From a virus, in IMG/VR virus record IMGVR_UViG_3300037247_001239, positions 1 to 64,000 of that record: 64,000 bases of DNA; one strand, given 5' to 3'. The translations under genes and the position numbers were made by a program. Shown here piece by piece: positions 6,705 through 11,752 of this stretch. The notes under the pieces are model-generated. The model searched no databases. It was not told the DNA's origin and saw nothing but the letters and a program-made list of their open reading frames with translations. The stretch's first letter is position 1; every line of letters begins with the position of its first letter.

Positions 6705-6954
6705 CAGTGTTTCCTTTCCCAACCGCCCGCCGTGCTTTCGCGGGGCAGGCCACCTCGCTTGTAAAGTGCCCCCGACAGGAATCGAACCTGCCTCGCTTGC
6801 CATTGTTACGACGGAATCGAACCGCCAGCGGGGAATGTCCCATGGCCAACAAGGGCGTCATAGGGGCCACCTCCCAGGACCCCGTTGCAACGCTCCTTTC
6901 GTTCGTCCCTCTGCTGCACGCAGACAGGAACCGCACCATTGCGGCCGTTGCAAG

Positions 6955-7028
6955 TGCCGGGCCGTGGAATCGAACCACGATTACTGGCTTATGAGACCAG
7001 CGAGATCACCAGACCTTCCCACCCGGTA
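6955..7028 (-). tRNA. tRNA-Met (CAT), possibly initiator-like or Ile2
   Basis: Cloverleaf: acceptor ACCGGGT/GCCCGGC, anticodon arm CTGGT-CTCATAA-GCCAG, T arm CGTGG-TTCGATT-CCACG; no encoded CCA. Confidence 0.8.
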
Positions 7029-7116
7029 TTGTCCTCCTTGGTTGTTCTCAAGTGCCGGCTTTCCACCGACTTGGCCCTCTGGACTGTCACGTCTTTCGCC
7101 GGCCCCTCCGACACGA

Positions 7117-7338
7117 CTACCGGCGCTCGCTTGTGGCGTTCCGGCTTGCCTTTTGCATGGTTCGGCTGTTCGTGGAGCCGCACCCGACGTTGGGGTGCCG
7201 AGCACTCGTGTTCTCCTCGAAGTCCAGGCGCTCTTCCACCGCCGCCAACTCGCCGCGCTCGAGGGCACGCTCGACCTCGCGCCGCCGCGACTCTTCGGCG
7301 TCAACGCACGTTTGGCCGTCGGGAATGGTCAGTGGCAT
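7117..7338 (-). CDS. Small hypothetical protein
   Basis: SD CAGGAG upstream; lies between the tRNA-like RNA and tRNA-Met. Confidence 0.5.
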   Translation of the reverse strand: MPLTIPDGQTCVDAEESRRREVERALERGELAAVEERLDFEENTSARHPNVGCGSTNSRTMQKASRNATSERR

Positions 7339-7380
7339 GGTGTGCTCCTGTTACAGGTCTGTCACTTAGGTTGGTGCGCT

Positions 7381-7526
7381 TTGCGGGCAGCGGGCGGGCC
7401 GGAATCGACAGCCGACTTGAGCTTCCTCAGTCTCAACCCGCTGGGTACCAAACGGCTCACGCCGCTGGCCTTGAGCGTTACCCCTGTGAGTGCGTGTCCT
7501 TCCACGCCGCCGCCCGCCGCCCGCAA
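7381..7526 (-). ncRNA. tRNA-like structured RNA (copy 1)
   Basis: Long closing stem (7381-7397 with 7510-7526), D-like hairpin CGGCGTGGAAGGACACG, T-like arm GTCGG-CTGTCGATT-CCGGC. Confidence 0.5.
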
Positions 7527-7596
7527 AACGCACGAATGAAACAGGACGCGCCGGCCGTCCGTTGCCGGCACGCCGGGGTAGATGGTTCGCTTCATG

Positions 7597-7707
7597 GGGT
7601 TCACTCGCCACCTTCAGACTCTCTGACTTCTCGGTTCACTCCTCTGCCGCAGACTCTCCGTGCCATCGGTTCACTCATTTCCCACAGACTCTCACTAACC
7701 GCGGTTA
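7597..7707 (-). repeat. TIGR-like dual-repeat mini-array (3 units)
   Basis: CAGACTCTC at 7615, 7650, 7685 alternating with (C)GGTTCACTC; 8-nt variable segments, 35-nt period; same repeats as the main array. Confidence 0.9.
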
Positions 7708-8442
7708 GTATTTGCGGACCATCGCCTTGATCTTCTCGAACCTTGCCGCCTGCTCCGCGTCGGCCAGGTCAATGGTCTTGCACTCCAACACGGCAAGGAA
7801 CGCATCCATTATCTGGAGGTTGTCGCGTTGCGTGAGCGGTCCACCTTTCTGTAATGCCAGTTTGGCTGAGGCCGAACCGGCACAGCAGTCCAGGGCTTTT
7901 TTCAGCACGCCAATAAACTTGCCGTTTACGCGGCGGTAGCTGCGGCTCTCCTTCTTCGGTGGCTCGCCCTTCTTGGGTTTCATCTCCGCCAGGCCCTCGA
8001 CAACCCGCGTGAGAATCAACCTCTCCAGCGTGACCGGGTCCATGCACAATATCTTGCTGATGCGCTTCAGGCTGTAGCCCTGCTGCTTCAGCCGATAGCC
8101 AATCCAGGCTTTGTCGCCGGGGTCCAGTTGCCGACCGTGCCTCGCGTTCAGTTCGACTGACTTTGCGAACCACTGCTTTTCGGGAAGCTTCAGAATCTCG
8201 GCCGCAATCTTCGTCTGCTTGGCCTTGCGGTGGATGAGGTAACGGTGTCGGCCGTCCAAACTCAGGAATGGATAGGGTCGTTTTGTCACCCTCACCAGTG
8301 CAATGGGCGGAAAGTTTGCACCCTGCTGGTAGGCATCCCAGTACTGGTTGACGGTAAACCAGTTGGCGTCGGCGTTCACCCGCGGGTAATACGCCGCCTC
8401 GAATCCGATATCGTCAAGCGGAATCATCGTGATTTCCGGCAT
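7705..8442 (-). CDS. ParB/Srx N-terminal-domain protein with HTH-like region
   Basis: YYPR...GANFPPI.L...LDGRHR (ParB GxxR-type box), ELNARHG..L...DK and a following helix-turn-helix-like segment; SD AAGGAG before the ATG at 8442. Confidence 0.8.
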   Translation of the reverse strand: MPEITMIPLDDIGFEAAYYPRVNADANWFTVNQYWDAYQQGANFPPIALVRVTKRPYPFLSLDGRHRYLIHRKAKQTKIAAEILKLPEKQWFAKSVELNARHGRQLDPGDKAWIGYRLKQQGYSLKRISKILCMDPVTLERLILTRVVEGLAEMKPKKGEPPKKESRSYRRVNGKFIGVLKKALDCCAGSASAKLALQKGGPLTQRDNLQIMDAFLAVLECKTIDLADAEQAARFEKIKAMVRKY

Positions 8443-8468
8443 GACATTCTCCTTTTGTAAGGTGTCAG

Positions 8469-9091
8469 AAAAACACTCGCATTTCGCAGACTCTCGGTTC
8501 TTCCGGTTCACTCTCACTCGCTATGGTTTACTCACGTGCGTCAGACTCTCTGCGGTCGCGGTTCACTCACCTGTGACAGACTCTCGGTAGTTCCGGTTCA
8601 CTCCGGCCTCCCAGATTCTCTATGAGCACGGTTCACTCGCGGTGGTCAGACTCTCCCCGCCGTCGGTTCACTCCGCCCCCACAGACTCTCGCTCGTTGCG
8701 GTTCACTCGTTGATCCCAGACTCTCGAAGAGCACGGTTTACTCCTTTCTTGCAGACTCTTCCCTCTCTCGGTTCACTCCGATGCGTCAGACTCTCACTCG
8801 TTGCGGTTCACTCACTTGTGACAGACCCTCGGCCGTTCCGGTTCACTCACAGCCAACAGGCTCTCAGCGATCACGGTTCACTCAGCCCGGTCAGACTCTC
8901 AGGAACGTCGGTTCACTCTCTTCCACAGACTCTCGCAGGAGACGGTTTACTCTCTTGGCGCAGACTCTCGGCGCTTGCGGTTCACTCCAGTCTGACAGAC
9001 TCTCGGTTTTCGCGGTTTACTCAAGTGCTTCGGATTCTCAATGGAAGCGGTTCACTCGAGCTTTGCAGACTCTCGCCGATGTCGGTTACTC
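8469..9091 (-). repeat. TIGR-like dual-repeat guide array (17 units)
   Basis: CAGACTCTC-type repeat at 8487, 8542, 8577, 8612, 8647, 8682, 8717, 8752, 8787, 8822, 8857, 8892, 8926, 8961, 8996, 9031, 9066 alternating with CGGTT(C/T)ACTC; variable 8-nt segments; starts at the stop codon of the Nop-domain gene. Confidence 0.92.
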
Positions 9092-10267
9092 CTCCCCATA
9101 CAAATGTTTCAGGGAATATCCCTCATACTCCCCTGGCCAGAGCGGCGGCTGAATCAAGTGTGCGTGTTGCTTGCCGTCCGGATGCTCGAAGATGAAGGGC
9201 GCCGGCGGCTCCTTACCCCAATACTCCCGGTACATGACGTGATGCAAATGAGACAAAAACAGCTTCACCGCCCACCGCCGGGCTCGAAAGTAAATCTGCT
9301 GCGGGGGCAACATCGGGACGCCGCTACCCGGCTGACCCTTGGGAATCTCGTCGTAGCCGTCGCCCTTCTTGGCGCAGGCCCGCACGACCTTGGGAACATA
9401 GCAACCGGACTTCCACGCATAGGCAGATGTGGCCTTGCCGACGCGATTCTCCCGCAGCCCTTGGGCAGCGTACTCCGAAAACTCGCCCGCAAGGTTCTGC
9501 TGCCACAAAGCCGCTTGCTTCTCCCACAGCAACCGCCCGTAGAAACACTTCTCCCGGTTCTTATTTTTGTTGAACGATTCGCCCAGGTGACCCAGGCAGA
9601 TCGTCTTCAACCGGCCATTGTAGGGACGGACGGAGAAAAACTTTACCAGCCCCTTGCTACCCTTCTCTGGAGCTTCTTCCTTGATGGCGTAGCCGTCGGT
9701 CCACACGCTTTGCAGCCTGACCCATTTCTGGCCGCTCCACTCCGACAGCTCTGTAATCTGCTCGTCGGTAATGGTGTCATCAATCCCAAGTTCCTTCAGT
9801 TTCTTTTGTGCGAGTTTACTGCCAGGCCACTTGAGGCTAGGGTCCAGCCCACCGAATCTCCAGATACCTCCTACCGTGGGCGCCTTGCGAATGTCGATGG
9901 TCGCAAGCAGGCCCGCCGAGATCACCGGCCCGATTCCGGTCTGGGCCAACATCCAGCGGCCAACAGCATAGCTCTTGGCAAACTCCGCCAAGAACCCTTT
10001 GATCGTGGCCTCCAGCCTGGACTCAGTGCTCTCCATCCATTCGATAAGCTCGTACGGTTCGCCCGCTAACTTTTCTGTCCTACCCTGGTGTGCGGCCCTG
10101 ATTCGCGCCCGTTGGAATGAGTAATACCTGTCCGTCAGGTAACGGGCGCCGGCGATCGAAATACCAGCCACCTTCCGTTTCAGTTCCCGCGAAAGCATCA
10201 CGGCAAAGTCACTTTCGCCGTTGCGGTCCGCGTCTTCAGGTGGGGCAGCTTCACAAACCTGCGACAT
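9086..10267 (-). CDS. TasA-like Nop-domain / IS110-related RNA-binding protein (no nuclease domain seen)
   Basis: YYSFQRARIR coiled coil, GIGPVISAGLLATID...GGIWRFGGL (IS110 Transposase_20/Nop motif), YNGRLKT, RARRWAVKLFLSHL; no DEDD RuvC or HNH visible; SD CAGGAG; adjacent to the dual-repeat array. Confidence 0.8.
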   Translation of the reverse strand: MSQVCEAAPPEDADRNGESDFAVMLSRELKRKVAGISIAGARYLTDRYYSFQRARIRAAHQGRTEKLAGEPYELIEWMESTESRLEATIKGFLAEFAKSYAVGRWMLAQTGIGPVISAGLLATIDIRKAPTVGGIWRFGGLDPSLKWPGSKLAQKKLKELGIDDTITDEQITELSEWSGQKWVRLQSVWTDGYAIKEEAPEKGSKGLVKFFSVRPYNGRLKTICLGHLGESFNKNKNREKCFYGRLLWEKQAALWQQNLAGEFSEYAAQGLRENRVGKATSAYAWKSGCYVPKVVRACAKKGDGYDEIPKGQPGSGVPMLPPQQIYFRARRWAVKLFLSHLHHVMYREYWGKEPPAPFIFEHPDGKQHAHLIQPPLWPGEYEGYSLKHLYGEE

Positions 10268-10438
10268 GGGAATCTCCTGTTTGGAAACAAGCACCCCGCG
10301 GCCAGCCCGCCGCCGACCGCAGGGTGTGGAAGCGACCACTCGAATCAGAGCCGACCAAAGCCAGAAGGCGAGTCGTCGCTGGGAAAGTCAGAAGCATGGT
10401 CGGCTCTCGTTCACGGGTTTTCGTTCCGCGTGAAAAGC

Positions 10439-10468
10439 AGAATAGCAGACAGGCCACTTTCCCGTCAA
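10439..10468 (-). promoter_or_regulatory. Sigma70-like promoter for the Tas/array/ParB operon
   Basis: TTGACG-18nt-TATTCT with TG just upstream of the -10. Confidence 0.55.
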
Positions 10469-10520
10469 GACGACGTTTGGATATTTTTTGCCGGACCAGC
10501 AAAATGGTCCTGCCGTAATC

Positions 10521-10549
10521 TTGACACGTTCGGCCGAATTGGCTAGGTT
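10521..10549 (+). promoter_or_regulatory. Sigma70-like promoter (divergent)
   Basis: TTGACA-17nt-TAGGTT. Confidence 0.6.
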
Positions 10550-10643
10550 GGCGGACACGCCCTGATTGCGGTGCCAGTCGCCTGGCAACAGATGTCCGCG
10601 TTCGGCCGCCCGTTTTTCGTCCCCCCTCACAAGGAGCAATGTC

Positions 10644-10883
10644 ATGTGTGACCCCCCTACCGTCACGCCATTGACTGGCGAGCAGCTTTTGGCTCTCCGG
10701 TCAATGGACGACCCCGATATGTTCACCCGCGAAGAACTTTACGATCTGCGGAGACGGGCCCTTAGTCGGATCCACCCAAGCCAAGATGATGGTTGGGCCC
10801 GAGCCTTTCAGCGCCTCGCCGACGCGGCCGACATCCTGGACGCCTTTTATGGTCGTTCATCGGTGCAAAAAGGTCCCGCCTGA
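10644..10883 (+). CDS. Hypothetical protein
   Basis: SD AAGGAG; first gene after the promoter. Confidence 0.55.
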   Translation: MCDPPTVTPLTGEQLLALRSMDDPDMFTREELYDLRRRALSRIHPSQDDGWARAFQRLADAADILDAFYGRSSVQKGPA

Positions 10884-10890
10884 TTGTTTC

Positions 10891-10919
10891 TTGACTCGGC
10901 GGGCCGTATCGGCTAGGTT
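10891..10919 (+). promoter_or_regulatory. Sigma70-like promoter
   Basis: TTGACT-17nt-TAGGTT; shares GGCTAGGTTGGCG with the 10521 promoter. Confidence 0.55.
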
Positions 10920-11263
10920 GGCGAATGCCAGCCGCCTGGTCGACTCAAATACCGCCTCACCGAAGAGGCAGGGCCCATCCCGGAGGTCCGAGGGGGTCGC
11001 AACCTTTGATGCTACTCTGGTTGCCGGTCGCAAGACCGAGAGGCATCGCGCCAGGCCCGCCATCCGGCTGGAGACGTTCCAGGAGCCCGCGACAACTGGC
11101 AAGAACCGAAGCTAGAGCGGAAAGTCCGCTTGGGCACCCGCATACGAAAGCGGCTCGGCATTCGGGTTGTCGCACCCATTGCCCACGACCAGGGCAGTAC
11201 GTGGAAGGCTAGCGATGTAGCCACGTCAAAAATCCAGAACGGAGGCCCTGGGGGAATTGCAGC

Positions 11264-11752
11264 ATGGGTGCATACCAAAAGCGCAACAGGCGATTGGAAA
11301 AGCTCGGTTACGAGTCCTATGAGGAGTATCTACAAAGCAACCTCTGGAATTCCATTCGCAGCCGCGTTATGACCCGAGACCAGCAGAAATGCCGCATTTG
11401 TGGAGGTCGGGCGTCGAATGTCCACCATTGGGGCTACCGCGAACCCACCCTGCTGGGGAAGTGCTTACTGGAGTTGTGGGCACTCTGCCGCAAATGCCAC
11501 CTGTTTATCGAGTTCGAGAAAAACGGCGAAAAAGCCAAATTTGGCAGTGCTCGTAGGCGACTGAAAATACTCTGCCGTCTAAAGGGATTGACATTTGACT
11601 CGGTCAACCCGCGGTGGGATGGAAAACCACCCCCTAAACGACGAAAACGGCGGCGATGCCAATTCTGCGGCATACGAAAGACCTTGGGCACGTTCCGCAC
11701 TACAGAAAACCCTGTCTGCCGTAAATGTGAGAAGGAACTCGCAATAGTATAG
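11264..11752 (+). CDS. HNH endonuclease
   Basis: YEEYLQS..W..IR..V..RD..KCRICG....VHH..Y...LCRKCH. Confidence 0.85.
   Translation: MGAYQKRNRRLEKLGYESYEEYLQSNLWNSIRSRVMTRDQQKCRICGGRASNVHHWGYREPTLLGKCLLELWALCRKCHLFIEFEKNGEKAKFGSARRRLKILCRLKGLTFDSVNPRWDGKPPPKRRKRRRCQFCGIRKTLGTFRTTENPVCRKCEKELAIV

What the first reader, a model, noticed from the sequence alone, without database searches (positions are those of the whole stretch)
7597..9091. ParB gene sits inside the array, and both gene stop codons are built into edge repeats
Seen: the Tas stop lies in GAG-TAA-CCG (9083-9091), a 1-nt-deleted edge repeat. The ParB stop lies in TAC-TAA-CCG (7702-7710), starting the second array. The ParB SD follows a degenerate edge repeat at ~8469. 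Inference: processing at edge repeats would release each mRNA from the polycistron, coupling ParB and Tas expression to guide maturation. Alternatively ParB was acquired as a cargo 'spacer' by repeat-mediated recombination.
Basis: partly seen in the sequence, partly recalled or inferred. Interest (0 to 1): 0.7.

Follow-up and report, generated by a model that had tools for sequence, protein, structure and literature searches.

The report
Phage TIGR-TasA operon with ParB
A marine-sediment phage carries a known kind of RNA-guided DNA-binding system (TIGR-TasA) in which guide RNAs and genes abut with no spacer, and its ParB-like helper gene belongs to a protein clade otherwise found beside a different RNA-guided system (VIPR).

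Summary
The locus is a dual-repeat TIGR-TasA system on the minus strand: tasA (10267-9086), a 17-guide array, a ParB-like gene (8442-7705), a 3-guide array and a terminator-like hairpin. A parB-like gene beside, and sometimes between, TIGR arrays was already published (Faure 2025).

The stop-codon detail appears in none of the four TIGR-Tas papers I searched (two for that phrase). Both genes end in T+AACCG. AACCG is the 3' half of an edge repeat, which is all the first guide needs. This is a normal 5'-truncated edge rather than a 1-nt deletion.

The junction recurs. In 29 of 50 Tas relatives whose array runs in phase from the stop codon, the stop lies inside the first repeat. Non-tas genes in L096 and L002 end the same way.

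Coupling of mRNA release to guide processing is plausible, because dual-repeat TasH cuts its own edge repeats. It is untested, since no RNA data exist.

Acquisition of ParB is supported. Its nearest relatives (31-41% identity) sit just downstream of Vipr homologues among pentamer guide tracts. An AU test rejects a single clade of Tas-linked ParBs (p = 0.0009).

The scan has met TIGR-TasA loci before on other DNA.

The parts
10439..10468 (-). Promoter-like site upstream of tasA (TTGACG, 18 nt, TATTCT, with TG)
   Evidence: It is the only sigma-70-like hit in 6800-11300. This is a consensus match only.
10292..10412 (-). Structured 5' leader of tasA: a long-range stem with arms at 10412-10397 and 10357-10342, and a 15-bp GC hairpin at 10326-10292
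   Evidence: The fold of 10480-10255 has z = -3.27, and 0 of 200 shuffles fold as well. Inverted repeat I10. A terminator-like hit.
9086..10267 (-). tasA: a 393-aa Nop-domain protein with no nuclease domain (ATG 10267, ribosome-binding site AGGAG)
   Evidence: The profile hits TasR 9mty at E=2e-15 and TasH at 2e-5. The AF2 model has pLDDT 89. The top ten Foldseek hits are all TasH or TasR. Pfam finds no domain. There are 1354 homologues, some carrying PF02371.
9083..9091 (-). Junction of tasA and array 1: last codon GAG, stop TAA, then CCG. T + AACCG is a 5'-truncated edge repeat.
   Evidence: The same class of junction occurs in relatives.
8474..9087 (-). TIGR array 1: 35-nt units made of edge GAGTGAACCG, 8 nt, loop GAGAGTCTG, 8 nt. 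It has 17 complete guides and ends in the 3'-truncated edge GAGTG.
8504..8533 (-). Broken unit: a loop repeat and an edge repeat are fused (GAGAGT+GAACCG), so one spacer B is missing
8443..8473 (-). parB leader: T5 directly after the half edge, then the ribosome-binding site AAGGAG at 8454-8449
   Evidence: No stable hairpin and no terminator-like site here.
7705..8442 (-). ParB-like gene of 245 aa: ParB N-domain plus helix-turn-helix, motif LDGRHR
   Evidence: The family profile hits PDB ParB 7o0n at E=1.6e-12. AF2 pLDDT is 92.7. Foldseek finds ParB, Noc and KorB at probability 1.0. Pfam ParB_N matches 14 of 50 family members.
7702..7710 (-). Junction of parB and array 2: TAC, stop TAA, then CCG. 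It is the same T + AACCG half edge.
7597..7706 (-). TIGR array 2: 3 complete guides with the same repeats as array 1. The last edge reads GAGTGAACCC.
7545..7574 (-). Terminator-like 11-bp GC hairpin followed by CTGTTTCATT

Best explanation
This is one phage operon of the dual-repeat TIGR-TasA kind. Its order is promoter, structured leader, tasA, 17 guides, a ParB-like accessory gene, 3 guides, terminator.

Genes and guides abut with zero spacer. Each array starts with only the 3' half of an edge repeat (AACCG), the part that ends up in the first mature guide. The upstream gene's stop codon is made by a T placed directly before that half repeat (T-AA-CCG). Array 1 ends with only the 5' half (GAGTG), followed at once by the parB leader.

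The cuts that mature the guides are made by the Tas protein itself in the studied dual-repeat TasH. Here they would also trim the 3' end of the tasA message and both ends of the parB message. Protein output and guide maturation would then come from the same precursor RNA.

The ParB-like protein is an accessory DNA-binding partner, not a partition protein. The window's copy belongs to a clade that otherwise accompanies Vipr effectors, so it entered the TIGR operon by module exchange.

Shown here: the anatomy, the protein identities, the recurrence of the junction in relatives, and the placement of ParB in the tree. Inferred: co-transcription, the cut positions, any regulatory effect, and what ParB does.
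For: Anatomy:
- Searches give the repeats, units and junctions.
- There is a single promoter-like site and a terminal hairpin, with nothing between array 1 and parB.

Protein identities:
- Tas.
- ParB.
- A flexible C-terminal loop (residues 361-369, pLDDT below 50) carries invariant H368 and near-invariant H370. This is where the published processing loop lies (PMC13421893).

The junction is general:
- 50 of 106 non-redundant Tas relatives have an array in phase from the stop codon. In 29 of these the stop lies inside the first repeat.
- The commonest phase is the window's, with T at edge position 5 and the 3' half kept.
- Non-tas genes end the same way. In L096 a 222-aa ORF ends caa-TAA-CCA before a second array. 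In L002 tas and a second ORF both end GAG-TAA-CCA before single guides.

ParB origin:
- 12 of 12 ParB-relative loci with upstream DNA carry a Vipr homologue.
- The window's ParB sits in a 99%-supported clade with 11 VIPR-linked ParBs.
- The AU test rejects one clade for the three Tas-linked ParBs, p = 0.0009.
Against: - No RNA data exist for this phage, so no transcript end is known.
- Published minimal arrays were processed only when they had full edge repeats. The truncated first edges might therefore not be cut at all.
- The position aligned with the family's conserved Tyr is Phe in this Tas (Y in 21 and F in 10 of 31 sequences). Whether that column is the catalytic Tyr of the published loop was not tested. 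TaTasR is reported not to catalyse the cut itself. Self-processing here is therefore not assured.
- The promoter scan is a crude consensus search and phage promoters may differ.
- The tree is a 'quick' one with long branches for L119 and L149.
Confidence: 0.6

Rival explanations
1. Compaction only. The overlap of stop codon and half repeat is a neutral by-product of phage genome economy. The 5' half of a first edge repeat is not needed by any guide, so the upstream ORF simply runs up to the guide. Processing, if it happens, has no regulatory consequence for Tas or ParB.
For: The 5' half of the first edge is not conserved (0-2 of 4 matches in loci of the same class). Junction positions vary among relatives, with offsets from -10 to +8. 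L149 has the same T+AGCCA start directly after a promoter with no gene upstream.
Against: The same exact junction recurs at tas and at unrelated genes in several lineages. Any cut at the guide's 5' end necessarily removes whatever lies 3' of it from the message.
Confidence: 0.25
2. Two independent transcription units. parB and array 2 are transcribed from their own promoter in or after the last units of array 1. The T5 run after GAGTG marks the end of the array 1 transcript.
For: A T5 run directly follows the last half edge. parB has its own strong ribosome-binding site. Published work says sequence alone cannot decide between co-transcription and separate promoters.
Against: There is no promoter-like hit and no hairpin before the T run. 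The fold of that stretch is no better than shuffles, z = -0.34.
Confidence: 0.1
3. The flanking arrays act as DNA sites for ParB. The ParB-like protein would bind the repeat DNA on both sides of its own gene, as centromere or operator iterons, to regulate or protect the arrays.
For: ParB relatives in VIPR loci are also flanked on both sides by short-period repeat tracts. The protein has a helix-turn-helix domain.
Against: In those loci the tracts flank vipr and other genes too, not only parB. The repeats differ completely between the two systems while the proteins are 31-41% identical. The arrays fit guide-RNA rules fully.
Confidence: 0.04
4. A classical ParABS partition module of a phage-plasmid that happens to lie next to a TIGR array.
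For: ParB fold.
Against: No ParA-type ATPase is found in the 74.5-kb record, which is 66% complete. The motif is DGRHR where partition ParBs have GERR (my own knowledge; the publication calls the TasParB motif distinct). Relatives sit beside Vipr or TasA, not ParA.
Confidence: 0.01

Closest known systems
TIGR-TasA loci with a parB-like gene (tasParB): Faure et al. [quoted passage not shown] S14
   Same: A nuclease-free Nop-domain TasA; dual-repeat arrays with roughly 10-nt repeats; a ParB-like protein with a DGxHR motif in the same operon. The authors state that arrays lie upstream, downstream and sometimes between tasParB and tasA.
   Different: The window's ParB is not in the clade of the two other Tas-linked ParBs I could find (L119 with DGFHR, L149 with DGWHR). 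It falls with VIPR-linked ones. The unit is 35 nt with 8 variable bases per spacer, and the loop repeat ends CUG where the edge ends CCG. The words 'stop codon' do not occur in that paper's main text.
VIPR systems (Vipr RAMP protein + vap accessory + pentamer-repeat vrRNAs): bioRxiv 10.64898/2026.04.26.720920, 10.64898/2026.04.26.720927, 10.64898/2026.10.15.759431
   Same: A phage-borne, nuclease-free RNA-guided DNA binder followed by a DNA-binding accessory gene, with guides interleaved between the genes. The nearest relatives of the window's ParB occupy the vap position. In the published SUSP1 system, whose Vap1 shows no detectable sequence similarity to this ParB, the accessory is needed for function in vivo.
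   Different: The window has no Vipr homologue and no pentamer tract. Its effector is a Nop-domain Tas and its guides are TIGR units. None of the three VIPR preprints uses the word ParB, and the two that I searched for TIGR do not use it either.
Self-processing of dual-repeat tigRNAs and tigRNAs overlapping tas: SpTasH Y289/H296 (PMC13421893); Xu et al. preprint 10.64898/2026.09.09.750476
   Same: The Tas protein cuts at a scissile phosphate in the edge repeat. TIGR units can overlap the tas coding sequence. [quoted passage not shown]
   Different: Here the overlap is only the last two bases of the stop codon, it also applies to a second, non-tas gene, and nothing has been measured.
CTP-dependent ParB-family DNA clamps (ParB, Noc, KorB; PDB 7bnr, 7nfu, 8qa9)
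   Same: The N-domain plus helix-turn-helix fold matches over about 145 residues at probability 1.0. An ELN-A-R stretch lies where ParB has its ENLQR box (the box itself is from my own knowledge).
   Different: DGRHR stands in place of GERR. No ParA or parS was found. CTP binding was not tested.

Membership tests
Dual-repeat TIGR-Tas system | Tas protein with a Nop / IS110-type RNA-binding domain | tested here: met
   The profile hits 9mty TasR at E=2e-15 and TasH at 2e-5. The Foldseek top ten are all TasH or TasR at probability 1.0.
Dual-repeat TIGR-Tas system | Array of two alternating short repeats with two short spacers per unit of about 36 nt | tested here: met
   35-nt units; edge of 10 nt, loop of 9 nt, and two variable stretches of 8 nt; 20 complete units.
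Dual-repeat TIGR-Tas system | [quoted passage not shown] | tested here: met
   Both arrays start with AACCG. Array 1 ends GAGTG. Array 2 is followed by a hairpin at 7574-7545. The rule is quoted.
Dual-repeat TIGR-Tas system | Box C / box D motifs shared by the edge and loop repeats | tested here: inconclusive
   Both repeats start GAG, but they end CCG (edge) versus CUG (loop). Relatives have CCA or CCG in both.
Dual-repeat TIGR-Tas system | Precursor processed into guides of about 36 nt that are bound by Tas | not testable with these tools
   No RNA run holds this DNA.
Dual-repeat TIGR-Tas system | C-terminal Tyr/His processing loop | tested here: inconclusive
   There is a flexible loop at 361-369 with invariant H368 and near-invariant H370. 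Position 358, a conserved aromatic column just before the loop, is Phe in the window (Y 21, F 10 of 31). Residue equivalence to SpTasH Y289/H296 was not established.
TasA subtype | No RuvC or HNH nuclease domain | tested here: met
   Only 46 residues precede the part that aligns with TasR residue 124. The model is almost wholly helical. Pfam finds no domain.
TasParB (ParB-like partner of TasA) | ParB N-domain fold with a conserved DGxHR motif, encoded in the tasA operon | tested here: met
   for the fold. LDGRHR with D63, G64, H66 and R67 invariant or nearly so. The published motif is DGFHR.
TasParB (ParB-like partner of TasA) | Common descent with other Tas-linked ParB-like proteins | tested here: not met
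   The AU test rejects a single clade of window + L119 + L149, p = 0.0009. The window groups with VIPR-linked ParBs at 99% support. The published TasParB sequences themselves were not available to me.
VIPR system | Vipr RAMP protein and pentamer-repeat vrRNAs | tested here: not met
   There is no hit to the Vipr profile and no (TGNNN)x6 tract in the 74.5-kb genome.
ParABS partition system | ParA ATPase partner | tested here: not met
   PF13614 and PF01656 are absent from the record, which is 66% complete.

The most novel reading that the evidence does not exclude
Two linked readings remain open.

(a) The Tas cut that makes the 5' end of the first guide falls between the U and the AA of the tasA and parB stop codons. 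Processed messages would then lose their stop codon and everything 3' of it. They would be handled as non-stop or unprotected RNAs, giving a built-in negative feedback that ties the dose of Tas and ParB to guide maturation.

(b) ParB-like proteins are a portable second-step module. Unrelated nuclease-free RNA-guided DNA binders (Nop-domain TasA and RAMP-type Vipr) would both recruit it to turn a bound site into lasting silencing, and it would be exchanged between the two systems.
Probability: 0.2. Interest if true: 0.8.

Novelty: new variant of a known kind. Interest (0 to 1): 0.55.

Why it matters
What TasA and TasParB do in nature is an open question, and only one paper in the searchable library names TasParB. 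Three results here can each be tested.

- Zero-spacer punctuation between genes and guides recurs across lineages. It predicts exact RNA ends, and it gives a simple construct for asking whether guide maturation controls effector dose.
- The space between two TIGR arrays holds different genes in different phages. That bears on how these arrays grow and recombine.
- The same ParB-like family accompanies two mechanistically unrelated phage RNA-guided DNA binders. Work on Vap proteins of VIPR and on TasParB may therefore be addressing one function. Such a partner could matter for engineering compact RNA-guided repressors.

Tried and rejected
- RNA evidence: no RNA holder is listed for this DNA. 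The only run is a marine-sediment DNA metagenome that may be the source.
The contexts of the closest Tas homologues (P0002-P0009) and of most ParB-family representatives could not be seen.
- A single-protein scan of viral contigs with Tas found nothing.
- The 50-sequence ParB alignment was too diverse for a locus scan. The 10-sequence ParB alignment found nothing in viral contigs. The word-index search found only the window's own ParB.
- tblastn of ParB against isolated phages gave no match.
- Self-targets: spacer A + reverse complement of B, or the reverse order, with a 0-3 nt gap and up to 3 mismatches, in the 74.5-kb genome. No hit had 0 or 1 mismatch. There were 171 hits in total against 107-166 in shuffled controls. 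There is no evidence of self-targeting. Scans of public collections with 16-mers were not run because chance hits would swamp them.
- A search for the phage's own promoter-like repeat (D5) with a fixed-spacing pattern found neither known copy, so it was not informative.
- hhalign of the L096 cargo protein against the ParB profile was negative. A second comparison failed on my coordinates.
- The tree used L149 in the wrong frame and is discarded. One search replaces it. One search was an unfinished careful search, so only its quick tree was read.
- The '1-nt-deleted edge repeat' reading was considered and set aside in favour of a 5'-truncated edge.
- GC and GC3 of parB match those of tasA, so composition says nothing about recent transfer.

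Full report
**Observation**

Reading the minus strand of 9120-7340 and mapping the repeats confirms every coordinate in the finding.
- The unit is 35 nt: edge repeat GAGTGAACCG, 8 variable bases, loop repeat GAGAGTCTG, 8 variable bases.
- The Tas ORF ends GAG-TAA-CCG at 9091-9083.
- The ParB ORF ends TAC-TAA-CCG at 7710-7702.
- Each junction is followed, after exactly 8 nt, by a loop repeat.
- Array 1 runs to 8474 and holds 17 complete guides. It also has one broken unit at 8533-8504, where a loop and an edge repeat are fused, and one unit whose spacer B is only 7 nt long (8925-8919).
- Array 1 ends GAGTG (8478-8474), then TTTTT, then the ParB ribosome-binding site AAGGAG (8454-8449) and the ATG at 8442.
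- Array 2 holds 3 guides and ends GAGTGAACCC at 7597.

**What the parts are**

The 393-aa protein (ATG 10267) has no Pfam hit of its own, but the evidence for Tas is strong.
- It has 1354 homologues, some carrying the IS110 C-terminal family PF02371.
- A profile of 31 of them hits the solved TasR (9mty, E=2e-15) and TasH.
- The AlphaFold model (pLDDT 89) has TasH and TasR structures as its ten best Foldseek matches, followed by IS621.
- Only 46 residues precede the region that aligns with TasR residue 124, and the model is almost wholly helical. It is therefore the nuclease-free TasA type.

The 245-aa protein has no close word-sharing homologue. An exhaustive search finds 694 relatives.
- Their profile hits ParB, Noc and Spo0J structures (best E=1.6e-12).
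- 14 of 50 family members pass Pfam ParB_N at E up to 0.01.
- The model (pLDDT 92.7) matches ParB, Noc and KorB at probability 1.0.
- Its LDGRHR motif is the DGxHR motif that Faure et al. describe for TasParB.

The window is a 74.6-kb viral record from marine sediment, estimated 66% complete.

**What was already known**

Faure et al. 2025 (PMC12045711) state the following:
- a parB-like gene, tasParB, is operonic with tasA;
[quoted passage not shown] So 'ParB sits inside the array' is a published architecture, and the half repeats at the ends are the published rule. The phrase 'stop codon' does not occur in that paper's main text. It occurs once, in a figure legend, in the 2026 survey preprint. 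[quoted passage not shown]

**The stop-codon junction is a general feature**

I fetched 122 loci encoding Tas relatives.
- Of 106 non-redundant loci with enough downstream DNA, 50 have an array running in phase from the tas stop codon. In 29 of those the stop lies inside the first repeat block.
- Phasing each array on its own consensus shows that the commonest position is the window's. The virtual edge repeat starts 4 nt before the stop, its 3' half (AGCCA, AGCCG or AACCG) is intact, position 5 is T instead of G, and the 5' half is unrelated to the repeat (0-2 of 4 matches).
- This is why I read the window's junctions as truncated edges rather than 1-nt deletions.
- Other loci place the stop 1-3 nt further into the repeat, or 4-5 nt before a full edge, or just after a repeat. 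The rule is therefore 'no spacer', not one fixed register.

**The junction is not special to tas or to ParB**

- In L096, a Pyrinomonadaceae MAG, tas ends GAG-TGA-GCCA inside an edge repeat and a short array follows. Two ORFs without Pfam hits (138 and 222 aa) come next. The second ends caa-TAA-CCA, which opens a second array, and that array ends in the half edge GAGCG.
- In L002, one of the two closest Tas relatives whose surrounding DNA I could read (42-44% identity), tas and a second ORF both end GAG-TAA-CCA. Each is followed by a single guide and the same terminator hairpin. The full edge repeat there is GCGTGCAACCA.
- L149 is a classical array-parB-tasA-array locus. Its promoter-proximal array also starts T+AGCCA and ends GAGCG, and its second array ends GAGCG plus a strong terminator.

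**Where the ParB came from**

- Only L119 (plus a weak hit in L099) among the 122 Tas loci carries a ParB-like gene.
- The 17 metagenome loci that encode the nearest ParB relatives (31-40% identity by tblastn) carry no Tas.
- Instead they are full of tracts with a strict 5-nt rhythm, TGNNN, before and after the genes.
- The ORF of roughly 200 aa directly upstream of ParB in these loci is a Vipr homologue. A profile of seven of them hits the solved SUSP1 Vipr protein at E=1.2e-8. All 12 loci that extend far enough upstream have it.
- L176 has canonical GGCNN tracts, a Vipr homologue and a ParB-like gene.
- Seventeen further viral contigs have a Vipr-like gene abutting a ParB-like one.
- The window's own genome has neither a Vipr homologue nor such tracts.

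In a tree of 37 ParB-like proteins:
- the window's copy is sister (98% support) to a group containing 11 VIPR-linked copies, inside a clade with 99% support;
- the two other Tas-linked copies, L119 and L149, lie in a different clade (98% support) with five VIPR-linked ones;
- an AU test, with the group named beforehand, rejects a single clade of the three Tas-linked proteins (p = 0.0009).

The caveats are that this is a quick tree, it has two long branches, and the root is unknown. No paper in the searchable library holds VIPR, vrRNA and ParB together. The three VIPR preprints never use the word ParB.

**How it most likely works**

All parts lie on one strand.
- The only promoter-like site in 6800-11300 is upstream of tasA (10468-10439).
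- A strongly structured leader follows it (z = -3.27).
- There is no promoter hit and no stable hairpin between array 1 and parB.
- An 11-bp GC hairpin with a U-rich tail follows array 2.

Published biochemistry shows that SpTasH cuts its own precursor at the edge repeat, without metal, using Tyr and His on a flexible C-terminal loop. [quoted passage not shown] The window's Tas has such a flexible loop with invariant H368 and near-invariant H370. The position aligned with the conserved Tyr is Phe.

If cuts fall where the truncated edges end, between edge positions 5 and 6, four things would follow.
- The predicted guides are 35 nt.
- The tasA message would end at ...GAG-U.
- The parB message would run from UUUUUC... 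to ...UAC-U.
- Both stop codons would be split.

All of this is inference. The literature also reports that minimal arrays needed full edge repeats for processing and that TaTasR does not catalyse the cut itself.

For ParB function, the analogy with the accessory gene of the SUSP1 VIPR system is what I can offer. That gene, vap1, is required in vivo, but the ParB-like family is undetectable in isolated phages by tblastn. So it is an analogy of position only. TasA proteins are reported to act as RNA-guided repressors.

**Rivals**

- Pure compaction without regulatory effect is the main rival.
- A separate parB promoter cannot be excluded by sequence.
- ParB binding to the array DNA is unlikely.
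- Classical partition is also unlikely: no ParA is found in the record.

**Things that led nowhere**

- No self-targets in the phage genome.
- No RNA data.
- Composition is uninformative.

**Verdict**

The locus is a member of a published kind. Two things are new: the recurrent zero-spacer punctuation between genes and guides, which also applies to non-tas genes, and the placement of this ParB in the clade that otherwise accompanies Vipr effectors.

Noticed in passing
L130:3990-6040 (also L124, L129, L131, L132, L135, L136): Tracts of 11-24 units with a strict TGNNN rhythm lie before a Vipr homologue, between it and the ParB-like gene, and after that gene. Each tract ends in a conserved tail. 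They look like vrRNA arrays of a UG-type VIPR variant. In L130 the ParB stop TAA is the end of the pentamer TGTAA.
   Followed up: partly
L007:1082-1777, L011:978-1703, L030:3737-4330, L040:2871-3464: Vipr-like ORFs (E from 1e-8 to 2e-14 against my Vipr profile) lie 0.7-3.3 kb upstream of tas in four TIGR-Tas viral contigs. Some phages may therefore carry both RNA-guided systems side by side.
   Followed up: no
L002:6169-6850: Single TIGR guides sit in the 3' ends of two successive genes. Each gene ends GAA-GAG-TAA-CCA. Each guide is followed by the same terminator hairpin and the same ribosome-binding site, so the repeated module includes the last codons of the gene.
   Followed up: partly
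L096:6073-7147: Two ORFs without Pfam hits (138 and 222 aa) lie between two TIGR arrays. The ribosome-binding site of the first lies inside the last array unit.
   Followed up: partly
window 8576-8813: Array 1 contains a 105-nt periodicity (three units, 2.3 copies, 79% matches) with related spacer pairs. This points to growth by duplication of three-unit blocks. There is also a loop/edge fusion at 8533-8504 and a 7-nt spacer at 8925-8919.
   Followed up: partly
window 10255-10480 (minus strand): The tasA leader folds far better than shuffles (z = -3.27). It has a long-range stem and a 15-bp GC hairpin just before the ribosome-binding site. It could be an attenuator or a stability element.
   Followed up: no
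window 10519-10553 and 10889-10923 (plus strand): There are two copies (83% alike) of a 35-nt promoter-like element, TCTTGAC...GGCTAGGTTGGCG. They face away from tasA, in front of small plus-strand genes.
   Followed up: no
window 6954-7027 (minus strand): A tRNA-Met gene lies about 520 nt downstream of the array 2 terminator (ARAGORN, and Rfam at 31.3 bits).
   Followed up: yes
window 7371-7397 and 7510-7536: A 27-nt inverted repeat (89% complementary) encloses 112 nt just downstream of the operon's terminator-like hairpin.
   Followed up: no
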